A stretch of DNA of 64,000 nt from Octopus vulgaris (GCA_951406725.2 OX597821.1:10106001-10170000); one strand, 5' to 3'; positions 1,842 to 42,323 are shown, counted from the first letter of the stretch. The notes: a model not told the origin generated them from the sequence alone. Translations and numbers: made by a program.

Positions 1842-2340
1842 TTATAGAAGGAGCTTCTACAGGACTAGAACTGTTTCATTCAAAAGAAATCATCAGGAAG
1901 CTAGGTGACAAGAGTAGTTTTGGCATTTATAAATTTAGGCAGGTTTAAAGGGGTGGTGATGCCTACAATCTCAATATAATTGACAACTATAGGCAATAAA
2001 AAAACAACTTTTAACCATAGGCTGAAACATATGTATTCAATTATATTGTGTATATATGTATGCTATTAAGTTTCCCATTTTTGTTAAATGAATAAATAAT
2101 TCAACATTCTAATATCCGAAAGCTGATAAACAAACTAAATTGTTTCTCCATTTTCTTATTTGTATTATGAATTAACGGTAAAATATTCCTTTGCTTTCAC
2201 CCGTTTAATACAATAAATAAGTTAATTGCATTGCAATTAAAAACACGTGTGTATTAATAATTTGGGTACTTTACCAAGAGTATATTGGATAAATACTATC
2301 CCTTAGTGGGTTGCACCCATAACCCCTAACTTACTTTGTC
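1838..2340 (-). mobile_element. Penelope-like element terminal-repeat (pLTR) fragment
   Basis: AT-rich segment between two (TA)n arrays that carries a minimal hammerhead motif at 1852-1902, a hallmark of PLE pLTRs. Boundaries approximate. Confidence 0.45.
1852..1902 (-). ncRNA. Minimal type I hammerhead ribozyme motif
   Basis: Minus strand reads AGCUUC-CUGAUGA-uUUC(uuuu)GAAu-GAAA-CAG(uucuaguc)CUG-UA-GAAGCU. Core intact, 6-bp stem I, short stems II/III, GUA cleavage triplet; first stem II pair is a U-U mismatch. Confidence 0.75.
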
Positions 2341-5609: not shown

Positions 5610-5790
5610 TTTACTTGTTTCAGTCATCTGACAGCTGCCATACTGGGGCACTGTATCGAGGAAGTTTAGTGGAAAGAGTTGAGACCAGGACGATTTTTAA
5701 GCCTGATAAATATGTTATTCTCATTCGGAGAAACGCTAATTTACAGGAACGTCAGCACACAAACACCGGTTGGTGGTGGGTTACAAACAC
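5610..5790 (-). mobile_element. tRNA-SINE 3' half, diverged
   Basis: ttacttgtttcagtcat...gccatactggggcac...acaccggttg aligns by eye with 55171-55335. Confidence 0.7.
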
Positions 5791-6903
5791 TGATGCAATG
5801 ACACTCACATGTCTATTTACCTATTTGTCTATCTCTTTCTCTTTCTCTCTCTCTCTCGCTCTATCTATCTGTATATATACATTTTGATGAACCCTGACAC
5901 GTAACAAGAACTCATGTCTGGAAACCTCATGGCATACTCAGATTATTGAAAAAAATCGATAATAGGGCCCTTAGAATGGATCCTTGTATATATCTAATAT
6001 ATTTTATTTGAAAAACTAAGAGAAATAACCCATTCATTTTCCTAAATTATTTGGTAAAAATGAAAATCAGTATGCTTATTTCTTAGTATTTGAACTGTTA
6101 GAGTTATTTTCGCACTTTATCCAGTAAAACCCTTAAACAAGTAAATAGTATTTTCCTAAACAACAGATCCACTTATTTCGCGCCTTATTCGCGAATATAC
6201 CAAAAGTAGCGCCCCTGACGGTAATATTCTTTGGGAACGAACAAAAGCCCTTTTTAGAGTTATTTACTTTGAATTATTATCGTCTCACATCTCGTCCTAG
6301 GGAAAACCTCAAAAGCATTGAAGAAATCTCGCTACATCACTGGGTTAGGTCGTAGATAATGACAGGTCTACAAGCACCAAATTTGCAATTGCTTACATCG
6401 AAGACTACCAACGTATACTTTTCGAAGAAGGTGGTCAGTACCTCGCGTTCCCAGTCATGCATAAATAGCAATTCGACATCCACTTTTCAAGACCGACTAA
6501 TATATGCTTATTCTGTAAGTCATCGAAAATAGGGTTAGATGATTTGTGTCGTGCTGATGGTCGTCACACTAATAACTTGTAACCTGAGGTCATTCAGCGG
6601 GCAAACTTGCTTCCAAAATAACCCAGGCCGCATACATTTATATGACACATATTTACTCCTGTTAAGATGACAACGTGTTCAGAGTAGCACAAAAATATGG
6701 ATAAGAATTTATCAAAATCTGGCTGTTGCTGAAGGTCAGGAGGTTCGAATGTCATGTTTTGTTGGAGTTCCAAAAGAAACTCGCTTCAAAGATTACTCAT
6801 GAGTTTTTATTAGTCGTCCAATCGTTGTGACGGAAGCAGCAAAATGAATAAAAAAAACAACAGTATTATTAACAACAGCAACAACAACAACAACAACAAC
6901 AAC

Positions 6904-6941
<38 letters not shown>

Positions 6942-6957
6942 CAACAATAATAATAAT

Positions 6958-7430
6958 GAAAAGCTTCAAACAAAGAGCATTTCTTCCTCATTGATATGAC
7001 AATCCCAATTGATATAAATGTATTTTTAAGCACCTACCAAAAACTAAGCAAGTATAAAATCTTGAAATAGAAATTGGCAAAATGTAGAACCTCAAGACTG
7101 AAACAATACCTCTTGTCATATGTGCCCCAGGAACAATAGCAAACGTGGCTCATTCCTACCTAGCTCAGGTACCAGGAAATCCCAAAATGGCAGAAATTCG
7201 AATGATATTGTTCTTGTGAACTGCCTATATTCAACGTAAAATGCTGTATATATAATCTCAAATTTTTTAAGAAAACTCACAATATTTTTTATGTTTTCTT
7301 AAACCTTCTCTGGAACAATTCTAAATGCAAAACGAAATATAGGACACCCTAGGCATAATAGCAACTTGAACTATTAACGTGTCTCTAAACGTCTATATGA
7401 GACTTGGAGTCAAATTGTAAAAATACCTGG
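6958..7430 (+). mobile_element. R4/Dong-type non-LTR retrotransposon, 5'-truncated (RLE C-terminus + 3' UTR)
   Basis: Translates with stops/frameshifts to LIDMTIPIDIN...YQKLSKY...EIEIGKM*NLKTETIPLVI..PG...PGNPKMAEI; flanked by (TAA)n; homologous to 9530-9965. Confidence 0.85.
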
Positions 7431-7470
7431 CAGATGACTAAATCTTTACCTTCTTTTCGTTATGTAGACA

Positions 7471-7531
7471 TAATAATGATAACGATGATAATAAAAATCA
7501 TAATAACAACAATAACAACAACAATAACAGC

Positions 7532-7617
<86 letters not shown>

Positions 7618-7625
7618 TGATAATG

Positions 7626-7696
<71 letters not shown>

Positions 7697-7697
7697 A
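7471..7697 (+). repeat. (TAA)n microsatellite (retrotransposon tail/target)
   Basis: Directly visible; source of the poly-I and poly-Y ORFs. Confidence 0.97.
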
Positions 7698-7698
7698 T

Positions 7699-8385
7699 GA
7701 CTGAAGTTTTGATATTACCGGCACAAGATCTAAGCTTGTTTACAAAAATAATACCAGGTAACCGTTCTTCAAAATAGTTCTGACCTTAAATACAGATTCT
7801 GGTCTCTGGATGCCATGTGCTGACACCAAATTCAAAAATACCCACGATAGTGTAGGACAGTATCTACGTTGTAAAATATATAAACACTACAAAATCAGTG
7901 CTCCTGCTTACTGGTATGAACATAATCTTGAGCCAATCGTTCAAGTTAAAAAAAAAGTTTGCTATCTTTGGGGATTTTTCACTCAACAGCGACAGAAATA
8001 GTCAAGATAATTGACCATACATAGTCATTAAAGACAAATAACATATTACTTGTAGACTAATTAATGTAAATATATCTGTAAAGAAATATATCTGTAAAGC
8101 AATTTGACAAACTAAGCAAATTTAAGGAACTGGATATTGAAAACTAAACATGTGGTGTATTATAGCGAGAAATGTTCCTATTATTTTAGGTACACTATGT
8201 ATGATAACAAAGGGATGTCACCCCAGGATATCATATCTTATAGAAATCCAAAAGATCGTGCAGACAAGTACTGCACACGTCCCTAGAAAAATGCTAGCAA
8301 TATAAATACTTGTGCTGTATCACATGAATATATTTCGCTACTTCTTAAGGCAACTGAAAATCCCATGCAAGGATGATGTCCTGCA
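7699..8385 (+). mobile_element. R4/Dong-type fragment, second family (linker + RLE)
   Basis: TEVLILPAQDLSL (cf. EGFI.AAQDQSL), GQYL..KIYKHY...WYEH, PYIVIKDK, EIQKIVQTSTAHVPRKML; lies between TAA arrays. Confidence 0.75.
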
Positions 8386-8470
8386 AATAATAATAACGAT
8401 GATAATAAAAATAATAATAACAACAACAACAACAATAACAACAACAATAATAATAATAATAATAATAATA

Positions 8471-8686
<216 letters not shown>

Positions 8687-8687
8687 T

Positions 8688-9128
8688 ATGGGCTACAGTA
8701 AATATTCTACTGAATACCACAGATTTACTTGTCAGTTGTTTAATCTTAACCAGCTGAACATGTCTTTAGTGACTCACCATATGTGCATCTCTGACAACGA
8801 GCAGAATTAGTAGGGAGCATCATAGCCGTGTGTAGAAAGGAACACATAGAGCTTTGGATAATTCACCTTTGGAAACATGGGTGGTTCGTTCAACATCCTT
8901 AATCCTTATTCAGGGATCTTTTGAGCGTGATGGGTTACTGTACAAGAAGAAAATTCTAACTTGGCCTCACCTGCAAGGTCGTGCGCTGTTCATCTTGATA
9001 TGAGATCACCATGTCACGCACATAAGGTTGTGAGGCACGTGCCTGGTATACCCATACCAGACAGGTAGTCATGATGGGTATACTGGGCTTCGTATGTCAC
9101 TTTGATCGCATGCACTGCTCTCTCAGTC
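8688..9128 (+). mobile_element. TAA-tailed non-coding retroposon, copy 1 (5'-truncated)
   Basis: Homologous to 10361-10765, 33281-33814, 35008-35489 and 35920-36431; common 3' end ctgctctctcactc-like + (TAA)n. Confidence 0.85.
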
Positions 9129-14490: not shown

Positions 14491-14548
14491 AGTTATATTT
14501 AAGAGATGAGCAATTATGTACATTATATACATTATTTACATTTGGCGG
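14491..14548 (-). repeat. Terminal fragment of the 19305-19699 cassette family
   Basis: agttatatttaagagatgagcaattatgtacattat...ttacatttggcgg is the reverse complement of ~19630-19690. Confidence 0.75.
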
Positions 14549-19133: not shown

Positions 19134-19304
19134 TTGGGAAGAGAGAGAGAGAGAAATAGGGAGAGAGAAATGAGACAATATAGAAGTGAAGTATATACCT
19201 AATCGATGATATTAGTATTTCCTAGTCGAGAAATGAAGAAAGGATCAGAATGAAAATCTATGCATGTGGTAGTTCTATGATAAAAAAAACGAAACAGTAT
19301 TGTT

Positions 19305-19699
19305 CATTATTTACATTAGACGGTATTTGTCCTCACCTTGTTTGTTGTTAGCGCAACGTTTCGGCTGATATACCCTGCAGCCTTAATCAGGTGTTTTGGG
19401 GGGAAATTTCGAACTTCAGTTCTCGTTCCTAAAGTATTTTCGATGTTATTATTATTATTATTATTATTATTATGCAGGTCACTGCATGGAATCGAACTCG
19501 GGATCTTGGGGTCAGTAACCCGCGCTCTTAACCACTACGCCTTTAGCCCGTGGTAAGACATCTGATGAAGGCTGGCGGGTATATAAGCCGAAACGTTGTG
19601 TTAACAATAAAAAAGATGAGAACAAATATCCGTCAAATGTAAATAATATAAATAATGTACATAATTCCTCATCTCTTAAATATAGAACTGAATGAACTG
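19305..19699 (-). mobile_element. tRNA-headed, hammerhead-like-bearing cassette with inverted arms and 12-bp TSD
   Basis: Direct repeat aacagtattgtt at 19293-19304 and 19700-19711; inverted arms ~19305-19397 and ~19555-19647; minus-strand A-box-like aggcgtagtgg and B box gttcgattcc (19488-19542). Confidence 0.8.
19555..19602 (+). ncRNA. Hammerhead-like motif (PLE-type variant core)
   Basis: GACAU-CUGAUGA-a-GGCU...AGCC-GAAA-CGUU-GUGUU: stem I with wobbles, 4-bp stem II, palindromic AACGUU in place of stem III. The mirror copy at ~19350-19397 (-) has CUGAUUA. Confidence 0.55.
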
Positions 19700-21624
19700 A
19701 ACAGTATTGTTATTGGTAAAGTCCATTAGCAGTTCAATAGGTGAAAATTCGATGATAATCCATGCCAAACGATAATGGAAGTTATTAGTTCCATTTTTGA
19801 ATAGAAAATTAATTGTATTCTACAGTTAGAAAAGTGTTAATGAACATAACTTATGATATTATTTCTTTGATCATGGAACTCCCAAACGCTTTGCTGACTA
19901 TAGCTCCAATGCATTACGTTCTAGTTCTACTGGTAAATGATATGACACGTGTAAACGATGCTTTATCGAGATCGATTAATTCAAATGTTATTAGAGTGCC
20001 TTCTTACAATCATGAGTAGTAGTGGTAGTAGTGGGGAATTGTCTGGTAGTAGTCGTGTAATTGTAGGTGTGTCATATTTCTTCGGATTTAGCTCTTGAAA
20101 CTCTCATAAGCGATGAAAAGGAATGTATGCAGTTAAAGCGACCGGATATGTTCGAAAGATGGTCATTCTGCCGGTTAAAAGAGCAGTAGGGGTGTGCCAT
20201 AATCGGGTCAAGACCAGAGGAACGTATGATACATGTTATATATTTTTATGAATAATAAATTAGATACATGTAGGTATTATTAATTATTAATATGCAATCA
20301 CATTTAGTTGTCATTGAATTAAATCCTCCTTTCCAATATTTGAAACTACTGCTCAACGTGACACCTTTCTCTCTGATTTAAAATCCCAGTGCACATAAAT
20401 TTTCATTTTGACGTTAGTAAAAACTATGAAATCCAGTGTGATAAACTTGCATCACTACCATAAAGTGTACAACAAAACTACTTGCGGTATTTGCTGAAGC
20501 TGTTTACCTCTTCCGTTCAAAACATTCAATGGTTTACTTAAAATTAAATCTGTTGGCGTATTTTCATCTCCCTCTAGTCCCTTTGTTACGTTTTGTGGAG
20601 TTTCTTCCTCCGCGAGAAATCGGGCCAAATATTTCCGGTTCAATATAAGCAAATTTCTATTTTCCACTGGCGAAATGGTTATAAAATCTGTCATCCTGTC
20701 AGACGAATTGATGAAAAACTTTACGGGTTTCTTGTCTCATTTATTATTGAAACAAATTAACTAACAAACGAGGCTCGGATATCTATTCAGTACCCAAATT
20801 CTATTATAAATACAGTGAAACAGCGTGTAAAAGAAGCTCTGAATTGTTAAAAATTTGGATATATCATGGATTGTCGAACGGTCACACCATCTCTTTTTGT
20901 AAATTAATTTATACGGAAATCAAGAGGGAATTTCTTGCGTTAGTGAGTTCCATATTACAGAAAAATATTTAGCAATGGAATGTCTGCAAATAGCATAATA
21001 AAGTATTCCACGCGTTTATTTTATAGTTCTTTCATTTTTCAAAAAGCATGATAATATATTCCACGTAAGTTTTATCTCGCATATGATTTAAGTTGTATCA
21101 AGCTGAATTAGCTTTCTAATATTCGATTGTAGAACTACGTAGGTAGATACACCAAAGTACATACAAAATAATATGCGCAGTATAAATTTAATGCTGTTGC
21201 AAATCAAACTGAGGTAACCTGCATATGATATTAATATTGTACTTAGAACATAATATTATACATTACAGCTACACGTATAAGATAAATGTCACTTGATATC
21301 GTAAACGTTTACGTATATGTACTCAAACTTTTGTACAACACATACGCATATACATATATAAAATATAGGTGGTTAATTAGCCAATTAACAGCATAGAAGC
21401 AAATAAATGTGTCACTAAGTATATATATGCTTTTGTGTGTGTCTGTGAGTATGTTCATATTCAACCCAGAGTGTGAGTCTGGGTAATTTACATTTCATTT
21501 CCTCAGATATTGTGTTGTACAACGTATTTGTCTATTTCTTATCGGTTCCGATCTCTTTGTCTCTCTCTCTCTCTCTCTGTCTATTTGTCTATGTGTGTGG
21601 GCATGCATATGTGTGTGTTTGTGT

Positions 21625-41102: not shown

Positions 41103-42323
41103 TATTGGTACTACTGCTACCTTTTTGATCGACCCCAACTGCTTAAATTCCCAAGCTAACCTGTCATATCTCTCAACTTTTCTTTCTTCCTTATCGCTTA
41201 CCTTGTTGTCATCTGTGTATGTTTTTTTCTATGATCCAGCTTAGTTTGCTTTCTTTCTCAATTATGTCTGGCTTCCTTCTCTCTATCTGATAGACATACT
41301 GAATCATAAAATTCCACAAGATCTTTGCGTTATCATTTTCGGTGATTCTCTCGGGTTTGTGGTCGTACCAATATTTTGCTCTGTCAAGTCCATACTTGTT
41401 GCAAGGTGTCCAGTGGACAAACTTAGCTATATTGTAGTGTCGCCTCTTATATACCTTCTAGGCTAGTGGCGTACATTGACTGGTAATGTGCCGTACAGTT
41501 TCTCTATTTTGTCCACAGATTCTGAACATATCACTTTTTGATGTGTTGTCAATTCTGTATTTTATGTAGTTTGTTCTCAGTGCTTGCTCCATTTCTGGTT
41601 TCAAATCATTTTTAATCATCCACAGCCATCTTTTTTCTCTGTCTCTCTTATCTCCAACATCCCTATGAAATTGTACATCCATTCTTTGCTTTCTTGGAAA
41701 CGACACGCTATTTTAGTTCCTCCATTATCACTTTCAATCCCTTTCTTTCAATATTATACTTCCTTTTCAGCGCCCTGTATTTTTGTTCACTTTTAAGGAC
41801 CCCTTTCTCTATTAGTAAGAACTGTATTTTCATCGTTATCTCTGCAGCTATTTTCCAAGACCCATCTTTTGATAGCTTCGAGCTCTATTTCTGTGAACCA
41901 ATGATTTTTTCTTATTACTCTAGTAGCATTACATAGTTTCTGCTCCGTGAGTTGAAACAATCACACTTACGTCCAATGATCATACATACGTTATCAGTAA
42001 CCCCTAATTTGAGCACCATTTTCATCTACTGGTTTGCTCAGGTAGTTACCCTCCACGACCACAGCATTAATTTGCTTGCTCCATCTACGCCATGGGTGGT
42101 GATCCCTTCCTGGATATCGACAGGCTGGAGCCGGGCCAGAATCTCTGGGCCCGTCGGCTGCAACAGTTTCATGACTACCGTTATCCACAATATTTTGTCG
42201 TTTCATTGTCACTCACATGAGGTAGCGATTATCAGGTTGCGCGATTACCATTATTTTTATTGTGACACCGTCATTAGATGCCTCAATAATCATGATATAG
42301 GGAGGCTCCATCCACTTCATTTC
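41103..42323 (-). mobile_element. R4/Dong-type element lacking RT (5' end/Myb-like domain joined to CCHC + RLE)
   Basis: WSKQINAVVVEGNYLSKP...RGY*RMYDHW...TEQKLC...VIRKNHWFTEIELE, then directly KRWLWM...EQALRTNYIK...RICGQNRETVRHITSQC, WYDHKP, KILWNF, RKPDII. Confidence 0.85.

What the first reader, a model, noticed from the sequence alone, without database searches (positions are those of the whole stretch)
19293..19711. tRNA-headed cassette with two inverted hammerhead-like arms, inserted as one unit: candidate Penelope-mobilised ribozyme SINE
Seen: a 12-bp direct repeat (aacagtattgtt) brackets 395 bp. On the minus strand this has a Pol III A/B-box tRNA-like head, an (AAT)n spacer and a CUGAUNA...GAAA motif; just upstream of the head is an inverted copy of the same ribozyme-bearing 3' portion. 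A third terminal fragment lies at 14491-14548. Known: minimal hammerheads with palindromic stem III and inverted, truncated terminal repeats characterise Penelope-like elements, whereas classical tRNA-SINEs borrow LINE tails. Inference: this is a SINE-like non-autonomous family, Pol III-transcribed, possibly self-cleaving as a dimer, and mobilised by PLE machinery. I do not know this pairing as a well-described class.
Basis: partly seen in the sequence, partly recalled or inferred. Interest (0 to 1): 0.75.

Follow-up and report, generated by a model that had tools for sequence, protein, structure and literature searches.

The report
Penelope retrotransposon end with tRNA promoter
This insert is not a separate mini-element but two back-to-back end pieces of an abundant, now decayed protein-coding jumping gene (a Penelope-like element) whose terminal repeat contains a tRNA-derived segment that likely served as its transcription start, which would explain why most of its many copies look like SINEs.

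Summary
The cassette is the pseudo-LTR of a protein-coding Penelope/Poseidon-type retrotransposon. In 26 of 29 other endonuclease-bearing loci the tRNA head follows the ORF stop. The hammerhead arm and tail are the first codons of that ORF. Short copies carry PLE marks: head-to-head inversion (8 of 15 random units vs 2 of 146 for a control SINE), one tail, ~12-bp TSDs; about 42,000 units, no intact ORF found. The unusual part: the pLTR holds a tRNA-Arg-like segment with intact A/B boxes, absent from 38 relatives. 38 of 44 segments reaching it stop at its 5' edge, and the family's sense strand has no TTTT terminator (weak). Best reading: RNA starts at the tRNA segment, probably by Pol III, and run-off reverse transcription from the first tail site makes SINE-like copies. 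No separate SINE lineage was detected. RNA-seq was uninformative; cleavage is untested. tRNA-plus-hammerhead SINEs are known (Sm-alpha); a tRNA promoter inside a PLE pLTR was not found in 8 searches. The scan reached this reading before on other DNA of this genome (e1-8669850, e1-8663237).

The parts
19293..19304 (.). Left target-site duplication (12 bp)
   Evidence: family TSD statistics
19305..19317 (-). 3' end of the long arm at the short AT-rich repeat, no tail (inferred inner reverse-transcription start site)
   Evidence: two-start-site model from PMC11167929
19345..19397 (-). Minimal type I hammerhead motif, defective in this copy (core CUGAUUA at 19390-19384, stem I mismatched); also the first codons of the PLE ORF
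19398..19445 (-). Spacer holding the position of the inferred ORF start codon (ATG in the family, ACG here at 19426-19424)
19446..19476 (-). (AAT)n tract, length variable between copies
19477..19549 (-). tRNA-Arg(ACG)-like segment; A box 19542-19532 (first T mutated here), B box 19497-19489 intact
   Evidence: family majority 47 of 73 identical to the genome's own tRNA-Arg(ACG)
19550..19553 (-). Four bases of leader; the 5' end (-4) lies in the family-wide 5'-end pile-up; inversion junction at 19553/19555
19555..19658 (+). Inverted 5'-truncated arm starting at stem I of the hammerhead; core intact (19562-19568, 19590-19597; predicted cut after 19597); reads open in the ORF frame
19659..19690 (+). 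PLE tail (~32 nt), present on this arm only; continues into the ORF in full-length copies
19691..19699 (+). Nine extra bases between tail and TSD, origin unclear
19700..19711 (.). Right target-site duplication
14494..14548 (-). Separate, heavily 5'-truncated tail-bearing fragment of the same family; no TSD seen by eye

Best explanation
The 395-bp insert is two head-to-head end pieces (pseudo-LTRs) of a protein-coding Penelope/Poseidon-type retrotransposon, and the tRNA-derived segment inside that repeat likely marks where the element's RNA began, probably by RNA polymerase III. Shown: unit of about 2.6 kb = ORF (RT, GIY-YIG-type end), ~35-nt UTR, tRNA-Arg-like segment with A/B boxes, (AAT)n, then ATG, minimal hammerhead and tail as the first codons of the next ORF. 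Inferred mechanism: RNA starts at about -7 to +1 of the tRNA segment; the element's RT nicks AT-rich DNA and starts inside the RNA at one of two sites flanking the tail; starting at the tail copy nearest the RNA 5' end it runs off at the tRNA edge and gives a 250-300-nt SINE-like cDNA, whereas starting at the downstream copy gives long ORF-bearing inserts. A small hairpin at the 5' edge lets the cDNA fold back, and a second cDNA begun at the other start site on the opposite strand completes a head-to-head insert with one tail and a ~12-bp TSD. The hammerhead is probably not needed for insertion (as in PAc) and cannot dimerise within this locus. The family appears extinct here.
For: ORF end followed by the head in 26 of 29 other EN loci, and by head, spacer or arm in all 29. 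Arm and tail run in frame into the ORF in L212 and L222 and lie directly upstream of the ORF start in about 39 of 60 N-terminal loci (counted by eye). An intact 847-aa relative, P0005, starts with the same hammerhead-encoded peptide (45% identity over 260 aa, E 7e-67). RT domain: Pfam RVT_1 E 1.4e-10. Inversion 8 of 15 random units vs 2 of 146 control SINE units, p 3e-8. Exactly one outer tail in 34 of 36 inverted loci. TSD of 10 bp or more in 20 of 35 vs 6 of 1,190. 38 of 44 segments that reach +5 stop within -15..+5, 14% expected. Head 47 of 73 identical to the genome's tRNA-Arg(ACG), all constrained A/B-box positions kept against 30 of 53 outside. No TTTT in the sense majority line of the unit, against 2 of 56 relatives' ORFs without one; 0 of 38 relatives have an A/B pair after the ORF. 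No diagnostic site between short and ORF-linked copies. Same layout in PAc and Pen2a (PMC11167929, PMC3846280).
Against: Pol III use is not shown: three RNA-seq runs give both directions about equally, reads mostly under 95% alike, and no start pile-up. The lack of TTTT is weak alone (P(0) 0.08 over 491 codons), and the relative closest to P0005, L346, also has a TTTT-free ORF without a tRNA segment. Only 3 of 7 ORF-linked upstream heads that reach +5 stop at the tRNA edge; 4 run further upstream (p 0.06 against 14%, and lower than short copies, p 0.02). A TATA-like motif lies about 30 nt before the pile-up, so Pol II could set the same start. A/B-box conservation could date from an older SINE before capture. 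Pfam GIY-YIG did not hit two EN pieces; the EN call rests on motif and relatives. In the unbiased sample the pile-up rests on 5 of 8 segments.
Confidence: 0.65

Rival explanations
1. Same PLE pLTR, but the tRNA segment is a passenger (an old SINE piece captured in the 3' UTR). The 5' pile-up is set by a Pol II TATA start, by RNase P cutting at the tRNA-like edge, or by RT folding back at the small hairpin there.
For: TATA-like motif at -36..-30 overlapping the stop codon; Pen2a pLTR has a TATA and Inr and PLE pLTRs often begin with palindromes (PMC3846280 passages); ends fall in two groups, around -7 and at +1..+5; 4 of 7 ORF-linked heads run past the edge; all other PLE promoters I read of are Pol II type.
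Against: All constrained A/B-box positions are kept while the rest of the tRNA decayed; two of six genuine tRNA-Arg genes fetched also have TATA-like bases near -35; the whole unit, pLTR included, lacks TTTT whereas three relatives' pLTRs that I viewed contain T runs.
Confidence: 0.24
2. One reading: an independent Pol III SINE lineage, amplified from short master copies and mobilised in trans by the PLE protein.
For: Most copies are short and begin at the tRNA edge; short copies ending at -7 have A at -8 where long copies have T; short copies stop at the edge more often than ORF-linked ones; non-autonomous PLE derivatives exist (PMC8557442 passages).
Against: The identical head-spacer-arm is fixed in ORF-bearing copies; no diagnostic site in 78 + 133 positions after correction (37 vs 35 and 35 vs 31 copies); the A at -8 is what fold-back copying would add; short copies lose the upstream TATA-like motif.
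Confidence: 0.1
3. The head is an unrelated SINE lying next to a PLE fragment by chance at this locus.
For: None found.
Against: Same order and junctions in dozens of loci and contigs bridging ORF end and head in runs of four other organism labels.
Confidence: 0.01

Closest known systems
Penelope/Poseidon EN+ PLEs: Poseidon_Ac/PAc of Anolis (PMC11167929, parts 1-2 of 4 read) and Pen2a of Adineta (PMC3846280, passages)
   Same: Single RT + C-terminal endonuclease ORF; pLTR and tail overlap the first codons; minimal hammerhead in the pLTR; optional ~30-40-nt tail at one end; inverted 5'-truncated copy; short TSD; partial tandems.
   Different: Here the pLTR contains a tRNA-derived A/B-box segment and (AAT)n, and most copies end at its 5' edge; those papers describe or assume Pol II-type pLTR promoters. 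No intact ORF was found here.
Minimal type I hammerheads of metazoan PLEs (PMC4209133, parts 1-2 of 4 read)
   Same: Short stem I, extra base before stem II, G10.1-C11.1 pair, palindromic ACGU in place of stem III.
   Different: None in the motif; activity untested here; core intact in 30 of 66 copies.
Schistosome Sm-alpha / Sj-alpha SINE-like elements (PMC2770079 and PMC6765202, passages)
   Same: tRNA-derived Pol III promoter followed by a hammerhead; high copy number.
   Different: Described as non-coding, often tandem, with an active ribozyme, and no PLE partner is named in the passages I saw; here the unit is the terminal repeat of a coding PLE and inserts head-to-head.
TRIMp3: Cassandra, Helenus, Ajax (PMC10886601, passages)
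   Same: A small-RNA-derived Pol III promoter embedded in a terminal repeat.
   Different: Those are non-autonomous LTR elements, and the paper argues their autonomous partners must use Pol II; here the segment sits in the repeat of the coding element, and it is a PLE.
Animal non-LTR retrozymes (bioRxiv 10.64898/2026.07.22.740005, part 1 of 5 read)
   Same: Non-coding hammerhead units related to PLE pLTRs.
   Different: Retrozymes are head-to-tail arrays without a tRNA head; here copies are dispersed, single or head-to-head.
Octopus OK/OR1/OR2 SINEs (Ohshima & Okada 1994, not held; seen only as cited in PMC4824008 and PMC4758252)
   Same: tRNA-derived repeats of octopus; a tRNA-Arg origin for OR1/OR2 is recalled, from no call.
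   Different: The citing papers call OR1 or OR2 CORE SINEs; here the body is a PLE ORF start. No sequence comparison was possible, so the short form may already carry one of these names.

Membership tests
EN+ PLE, Penelope/Poseidon clade | One ORF with RT and C-terminal GIY-YIG endonuclease | tested here: met
   RVT_1 E 1.4e-10; EN-type motif by translation; 216 relatives with E<=1e-20. Pfam GIY-YIG itself did not hit 2 of 2 EN pieces.
EN+ PLE, Penelope/Poseidon clade | No Zn-finger-like linker between RT and EN (present in Neptune and Nematis per PMC8557442) | tested here: met
   L217 linker has none, the genome's 781-aa family has one; no labelled tree was built
EN+ PLE, Penelope/Poseidon clade | pLTR and tail overlap the ORF start; partial tandems | tested here: met
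EN+ PLE, Penelope/Poseidon clade | Inverted 5'-truncated copy, tail at one end only, short TSD | tested here: met
EN+ PLE, Penelope/Poseidon clade | Minimal hammerhead motif in the pLTR | tested here: met
   motif only
EN+ PLE, Penelope/Poseidon clade | Intact, potentially active copy in the genome | tested here: not met
   longest open frame 572 aa among 150 listed RT matches; copies a median 5.5-6.1% from the majority line, minimum 2.7%; only the best candidates were scored
Hammerhead ribozyme | Self-cleavage (monomer, dimer or protein-assisted) | not testable with these tools
   No read ends piled at the predicted site, which is uninformative
SINE (SINEBase definition, PMC3531059) | Under 700 bp, non-coding, head from a Pol III RNA | tested here: met
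   short copies; only tRNA-Arg(ACG) was compared
SINE (SINEBase definition, PMC3531059) | Transcribed by Pol III from the internal promoter | tested here: inconclusive
   for; uninformative:
SINE (SINEBase definition, PMC3531059) | Separate non-autonomous family relying on a partner LINE | tested here: not met
   the partner is a PLE that contains the whole cassette; no diagnostic sites
Non-LTR retrozyme | Head-to-tail arrays with a hammerhead in each unit | tested here: not met
   0 arrays among 15 random units; one head-to-tail pair in L016
TRIMp3 | True LTRs with PBS and PPT, 4-5-bp TSD, non-autonomous | tested here: not met
   TSD mode 12 bp, coding partner carries the repeat; PBS and PPT were not searched
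Octopus OK/OR1/OR2 SINEs | Sequence identity to the published consensus | not testable with these tools
   paper not held; SINEBase supplements not readable

The most novel reading that the evidence does not exclude
A protein-coding, autonomous retrotransposon that switched to an RNA polymerase III promoter: a captured tRNA-Arg segment in its pLTR drove a terminator-free 2.6-kb RNA, and internal priming near that RNA's 5' end produced tens of thousands of SINE-like copies with no separate SINE lineage, that is, a retrotransposon that is its own SINE.
Probability: 0.3. Interest if true: 0.78.

Novelty: new variant of a known kind. Interest (0 to 1): 0.52.

Why it matters
Autonomous retrotransposons are taken to be Pol II-transcribed and SINEs to be separate Pol III parasites of LINEs (PMC3531059, PMC10886601 passages). 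A coding PLE with a tRNA-type promoter in its own terminal repeat blurs that line. It shows a route by which a SINE-like swarm (about 0.5% of this genome) arises from a PLE, and means that some repeats annotated as tRNA-SINEs are PLE ends. The fixed RNA edge, the one-tail rule and the fold-back junctions give a large natural data set for the still unresolved PLE insertion mechanism. If Pol III really read the ORF, the question arises how an uncapped RNA was translated. The family looks extinct here, which limits direct tests.

Tried and rejected
Rfam and ARAGORN found neither tRNA nor hammerhead at the element; library models miss these forms. The Pfam GIY-YIG genome search returned Neptune-type PLE families; none of 30 + 20 loci shared the arm as part of its own repeat (L069 holds an independent insertion), so they were rejected as partner. 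The partner was found in a systematic 1-Mb sample (L087). An arm-only query returned nothing because its words are too common. One search covered the RT-EN linker through a coordinate slip and was redone. No solved structure matched the Neptune-type protein. No RNA holder was listed by the run index; three raw RNA runs showed no strand bias or start site. Viral contigs held no relative. Minimum-energy folds of monomer and dimer did not give the active hammerhead fold and were not used; the majority arm carried a 3-nt gap inherited from its reference and was replaced by a natural copy. Relaxed ARAGORN on relatives gave noise. Covariation was not tested: copies decay neutrally from one master and the motif is also coding.

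Full report
Observation. The 12-bp repeat occurs only at 19293-19304 and 19700-19711; the two arms align at 85% over 93 nt and a third fragment lies at 14494-14548. The minus strand reads leader, tRNA-like head (19549-19477), (AAT)n, spacer, hammerhead-like arm, and ends without a tail; the plus arm starts at 19555 and ends with a ~32-nt tail plus nine extra bases. The minus arm's core is CUGAUUA (G8 changed) with a mismatched stem I; the plus arm's core is intact. ARAGORN and Rfam report nothing here. The window lies in G000 (2.8 Gb, 227 contigs); that it is an octopus is my inference from size and recalled repeats, not a tool result.

Family. A search with head plus arm gave 4,892 candidates, 40 scored. 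In 100 evenly spaced 10-kb stretches 15 insertion units passed E 1e-8, covering 4,780 of 1,000,000 bases, or about 42,000 units genome-wide (17 loci had a hit at E 1e-4). Eight of the 15 are head-to-head and none tail-to-tail, against 2 of 146 units of an abundant control SINE (p 3e-8). Of 36 inverted loci, 34 have a tail on exactly one outer end; L003 has none and L102 is cut by the locus edge; two three-armed loci also have an inner tailed arm. In the 19 loci not selected for a tail the count is 17 with one, 2 with none, 0 with both. Exact flanking repeats of 10 bp or more occur in 20 of 35 units (L102 left out) against 6 of 1,190 mismatched pairs; 12 bp is commonest. Inversion, one tail and short TSDs are the insertion marks described for PLEs (PMC8557442 passages; PMC3846280 passages).

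The partner contains the cassette. The intact 781-aa Neptune-type PLEs of this genome do not share the arm. In random locus L087 the head is preceded by an endonuclease-type coding end. Searching with it, 26 of 29 other loci have the head right after the stop codon and a ~35-nt UTR, and all 29 have head, spacer or arm downstream in the same sense. Further upstream lies an RT (Pfam RVT_1 E 1.4e-10; Pfam GIY-YIG did not hit 2 of 2 EN pieces). In L212 and L222 spacer, hammerhead and tail run in frame into the ORF, and the arm or tail lies directly upstream of the ORF start in about 39 of 60 N-terminal loci (counted by eye). An intact 847-aa relative, P0005, begins with the same hammerhead-encoded motif (45% over 260 aa, E 7e-67), and the window's plus arm still reads open in that frame. 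This is the layout of PAc, where hammerhead and tail lie in the ORF start and the tail spans two RT start sites (PMC11167929, parts 1-2 of 4), and of Pen2a. The RT-EN linker lacks the Neptune Zn-finger-like motif, so I place the element in the Penelope/Poseidon clade; no labelled tree was built. First-look candidates fall toward the 5' end (2,987 EN; 1,825 linker; 497 RT; 345 N-terminus; lower bounds), as for 5' truncation. No intact ORF was seen (longest open frame 572 aa in 150 listed matches); copies differ from the majority line by a median 5.5-6.1%, minimum 2.7%. Contigs bridging ORF end and head occur in runs of four organism labels, B to E.

The tRNA segment. The family majority is 47 of 73 identical to the genome's own tRNA-Arg(ACG), the only isotype compared (score 72 against 26 plus or minus 5 for shuffles). 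All constrained A- and B-box positions are kept while 30 of 53 positions outside match (rough p 4e-4). Among 56 of 79 metagenome relatives (those with longer matches), none of the 38 with enough downstream DNA has an A/B pair, though many have the same minimal hammerhead. The segment is therefore a lineage-specific addition. Of 68 head-containing segments, 24 end inside the head and 44 reach +5; of these 38 stop within -15..+5 where 14% would be expected from the rate inside the head (segments of one locus are not independent, one set was selected for heads, and the unbiased sample gives 5 of 8). Ends group near -7 and at +1..+5. A small hairpin spans the edge, and bases beyond -7 copy the head in reverse, as fold-back would; the same loose end at -7 shows in RNA reads and in contigs of three other organism labels. 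Palindromic pLTR starts and self-priming are already noted for PLEs. Among ORF-linked upstream heads only 3 of 7 stop at the edge.

Short versus long copies. No position separates short from ORF-linked copies after correction (head 37 vs 35 copies, smallest p 0.095 of 78; spacer and arm 35 vs 31, smallest p 0.006 of 133), so one template sequence explains both. The idea that short copies are run-off products of the element's own RNA came from earlier scan notes on other genomes; here it fits internal priming in PAc and the results above, but it is not separated from a short Pol III transcript of the same pLTR.

Terminators. Natural copies hold 49 TTTT runs against 133 expected in 110 kb, none shared by more than 3 copies in a 20-base bin; the majority line has none over the unit. 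By synonymous shuffling this is weak (P(0) 0.08 over 491 codons). Neptune-type ORFs here have the expected 6-9 and only 2 of 56 relatives have none, but one of the two is the closest to P0005 and has no tRNA segment.

Expression and ribozyme. Three RNA-seq runs of one study lay 6,096-8,904 reads each on a copy, both directions about equally, mostly under 95% alike, with no start or end pile-up: compatible with passive co-transcription of many copies, and no test of Pol III. The motif matches the minimal type I hammerhead of metazoan PLEs (PMC4209133, parts 1-2 of 4); the core is intact in 30 of 66 copies. In PAc cleavage needs protein and is not needed for insertion. In this locus the arms are on opposite strands; a read-through RNA would fold into a long hairpin (-151 kcal/mol), not a ribozyme dimer.

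Mechanism. Shown: anatomy, coding overlap, inversion, one tail, TSD, 5'-end pile-up, tRNA origin. Inferred: RNA start at the tRNA edge (likely), Pol III (about 0.6), run-off from the first tail site, fold-back, two-strand priming. Rivals: Pol II TATA start, RNase P cut or RT stall (0.24); independent SINE lineage (0.1).

Known versus new. tRNA head plus hammerhead is known from Sm-alpha (PMC2770079 and PMC6765202 passages); Pol III promoters in terminal repeats from non-autonomous TRIMp3 (PMC10886601 passages); PLE-derived non-coding units from retrozymes (bioRxiv 10.64898/2026.07.22.740005, part 1 of 5) and Chlamys. I found no description of a tRNA segment inside the pLTR of a coding PLE, or of a PLE-driven tRNA SINE, in eight full-text searches (listings and abstract starts only, except where named), nor in passages of PMC13282606 (supplement passages), PMC8967140, PMC4758252, PMC4824008 and PMC3531059. 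Ohshima and Okada 1994 and Albertin 2015 were not held, SINEBase supplements were unreadable, bioRxiv supplements are closed and Repbase was not available, so the short form may already be named as a SINE. The scan's own notes reached the same reading on other DNA of this genome; they are not independent support.

Verdict. Observation confirmed, interpretation partly supported. A new variant of a known kind: a Poseidon-type PLE whose terminal repeat carries a tRNA-type promoter segment and whose copies are mostly SINE-like. Interest 0.52; 0.78 if Pol III transcription of the coding element is shown (probability 0.3).

Noticed in passing
G000, e.g. L037/L061 (C16:20.84 Mb), L042; A young Neptune-type PLE family with many intact 781-aa open frames, and several more Neptune-type families ending in (TA)n, with pLTRs unrelated to this arm.
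   Followed up: partly
window 1873-1896 (-), also L057: Another hammerhead-core-like motif next to a (TA)n tract; nearly the same sequence occurs in L057, so it is a second repeat family.
   Followed up: no
window 5703-5734 (+) and 42200-42235 (-): Two more loose CUGAUNA...GAAAC matches without clear stems; probably chance.
   Followed up: no
G000:C2:211.89-211.91 Mb: About 20 same-strand matches to a tRNA-Arg(ACG) motif, many about 206 bp apart: a tandem tRNA gene cluster.
   Followed up: no
L345:1285-1509 and L279:1242-1444 (oriented): ORF end joined to the tail or ORF start with head and hammerhead missing; deletions, or a tRNA-less form of the repeat.
   Followed up: no
L104 (next to the family fragment) and the 1-Mb sample: A different tRNA-headed SINE at 146 units per Mb, used as control.
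   Followed up: partly
window 19305-19699: Inverted inserts fold into long RNA hairpins when read through; with tens of thousands of them they could be A-to-I editing substrates (inference).
   Followed up: no
L048 (G000:C30:5.22 Mb): A GIY-YIG exon that looks like a host SLX1-type nuclease, not a PLE (name recalled).
   Followed up: no
window 19691-19699: Seven of the nine extra bases are the reverse complement of the left junction; possibly a templated insertion.
   Followed up: no
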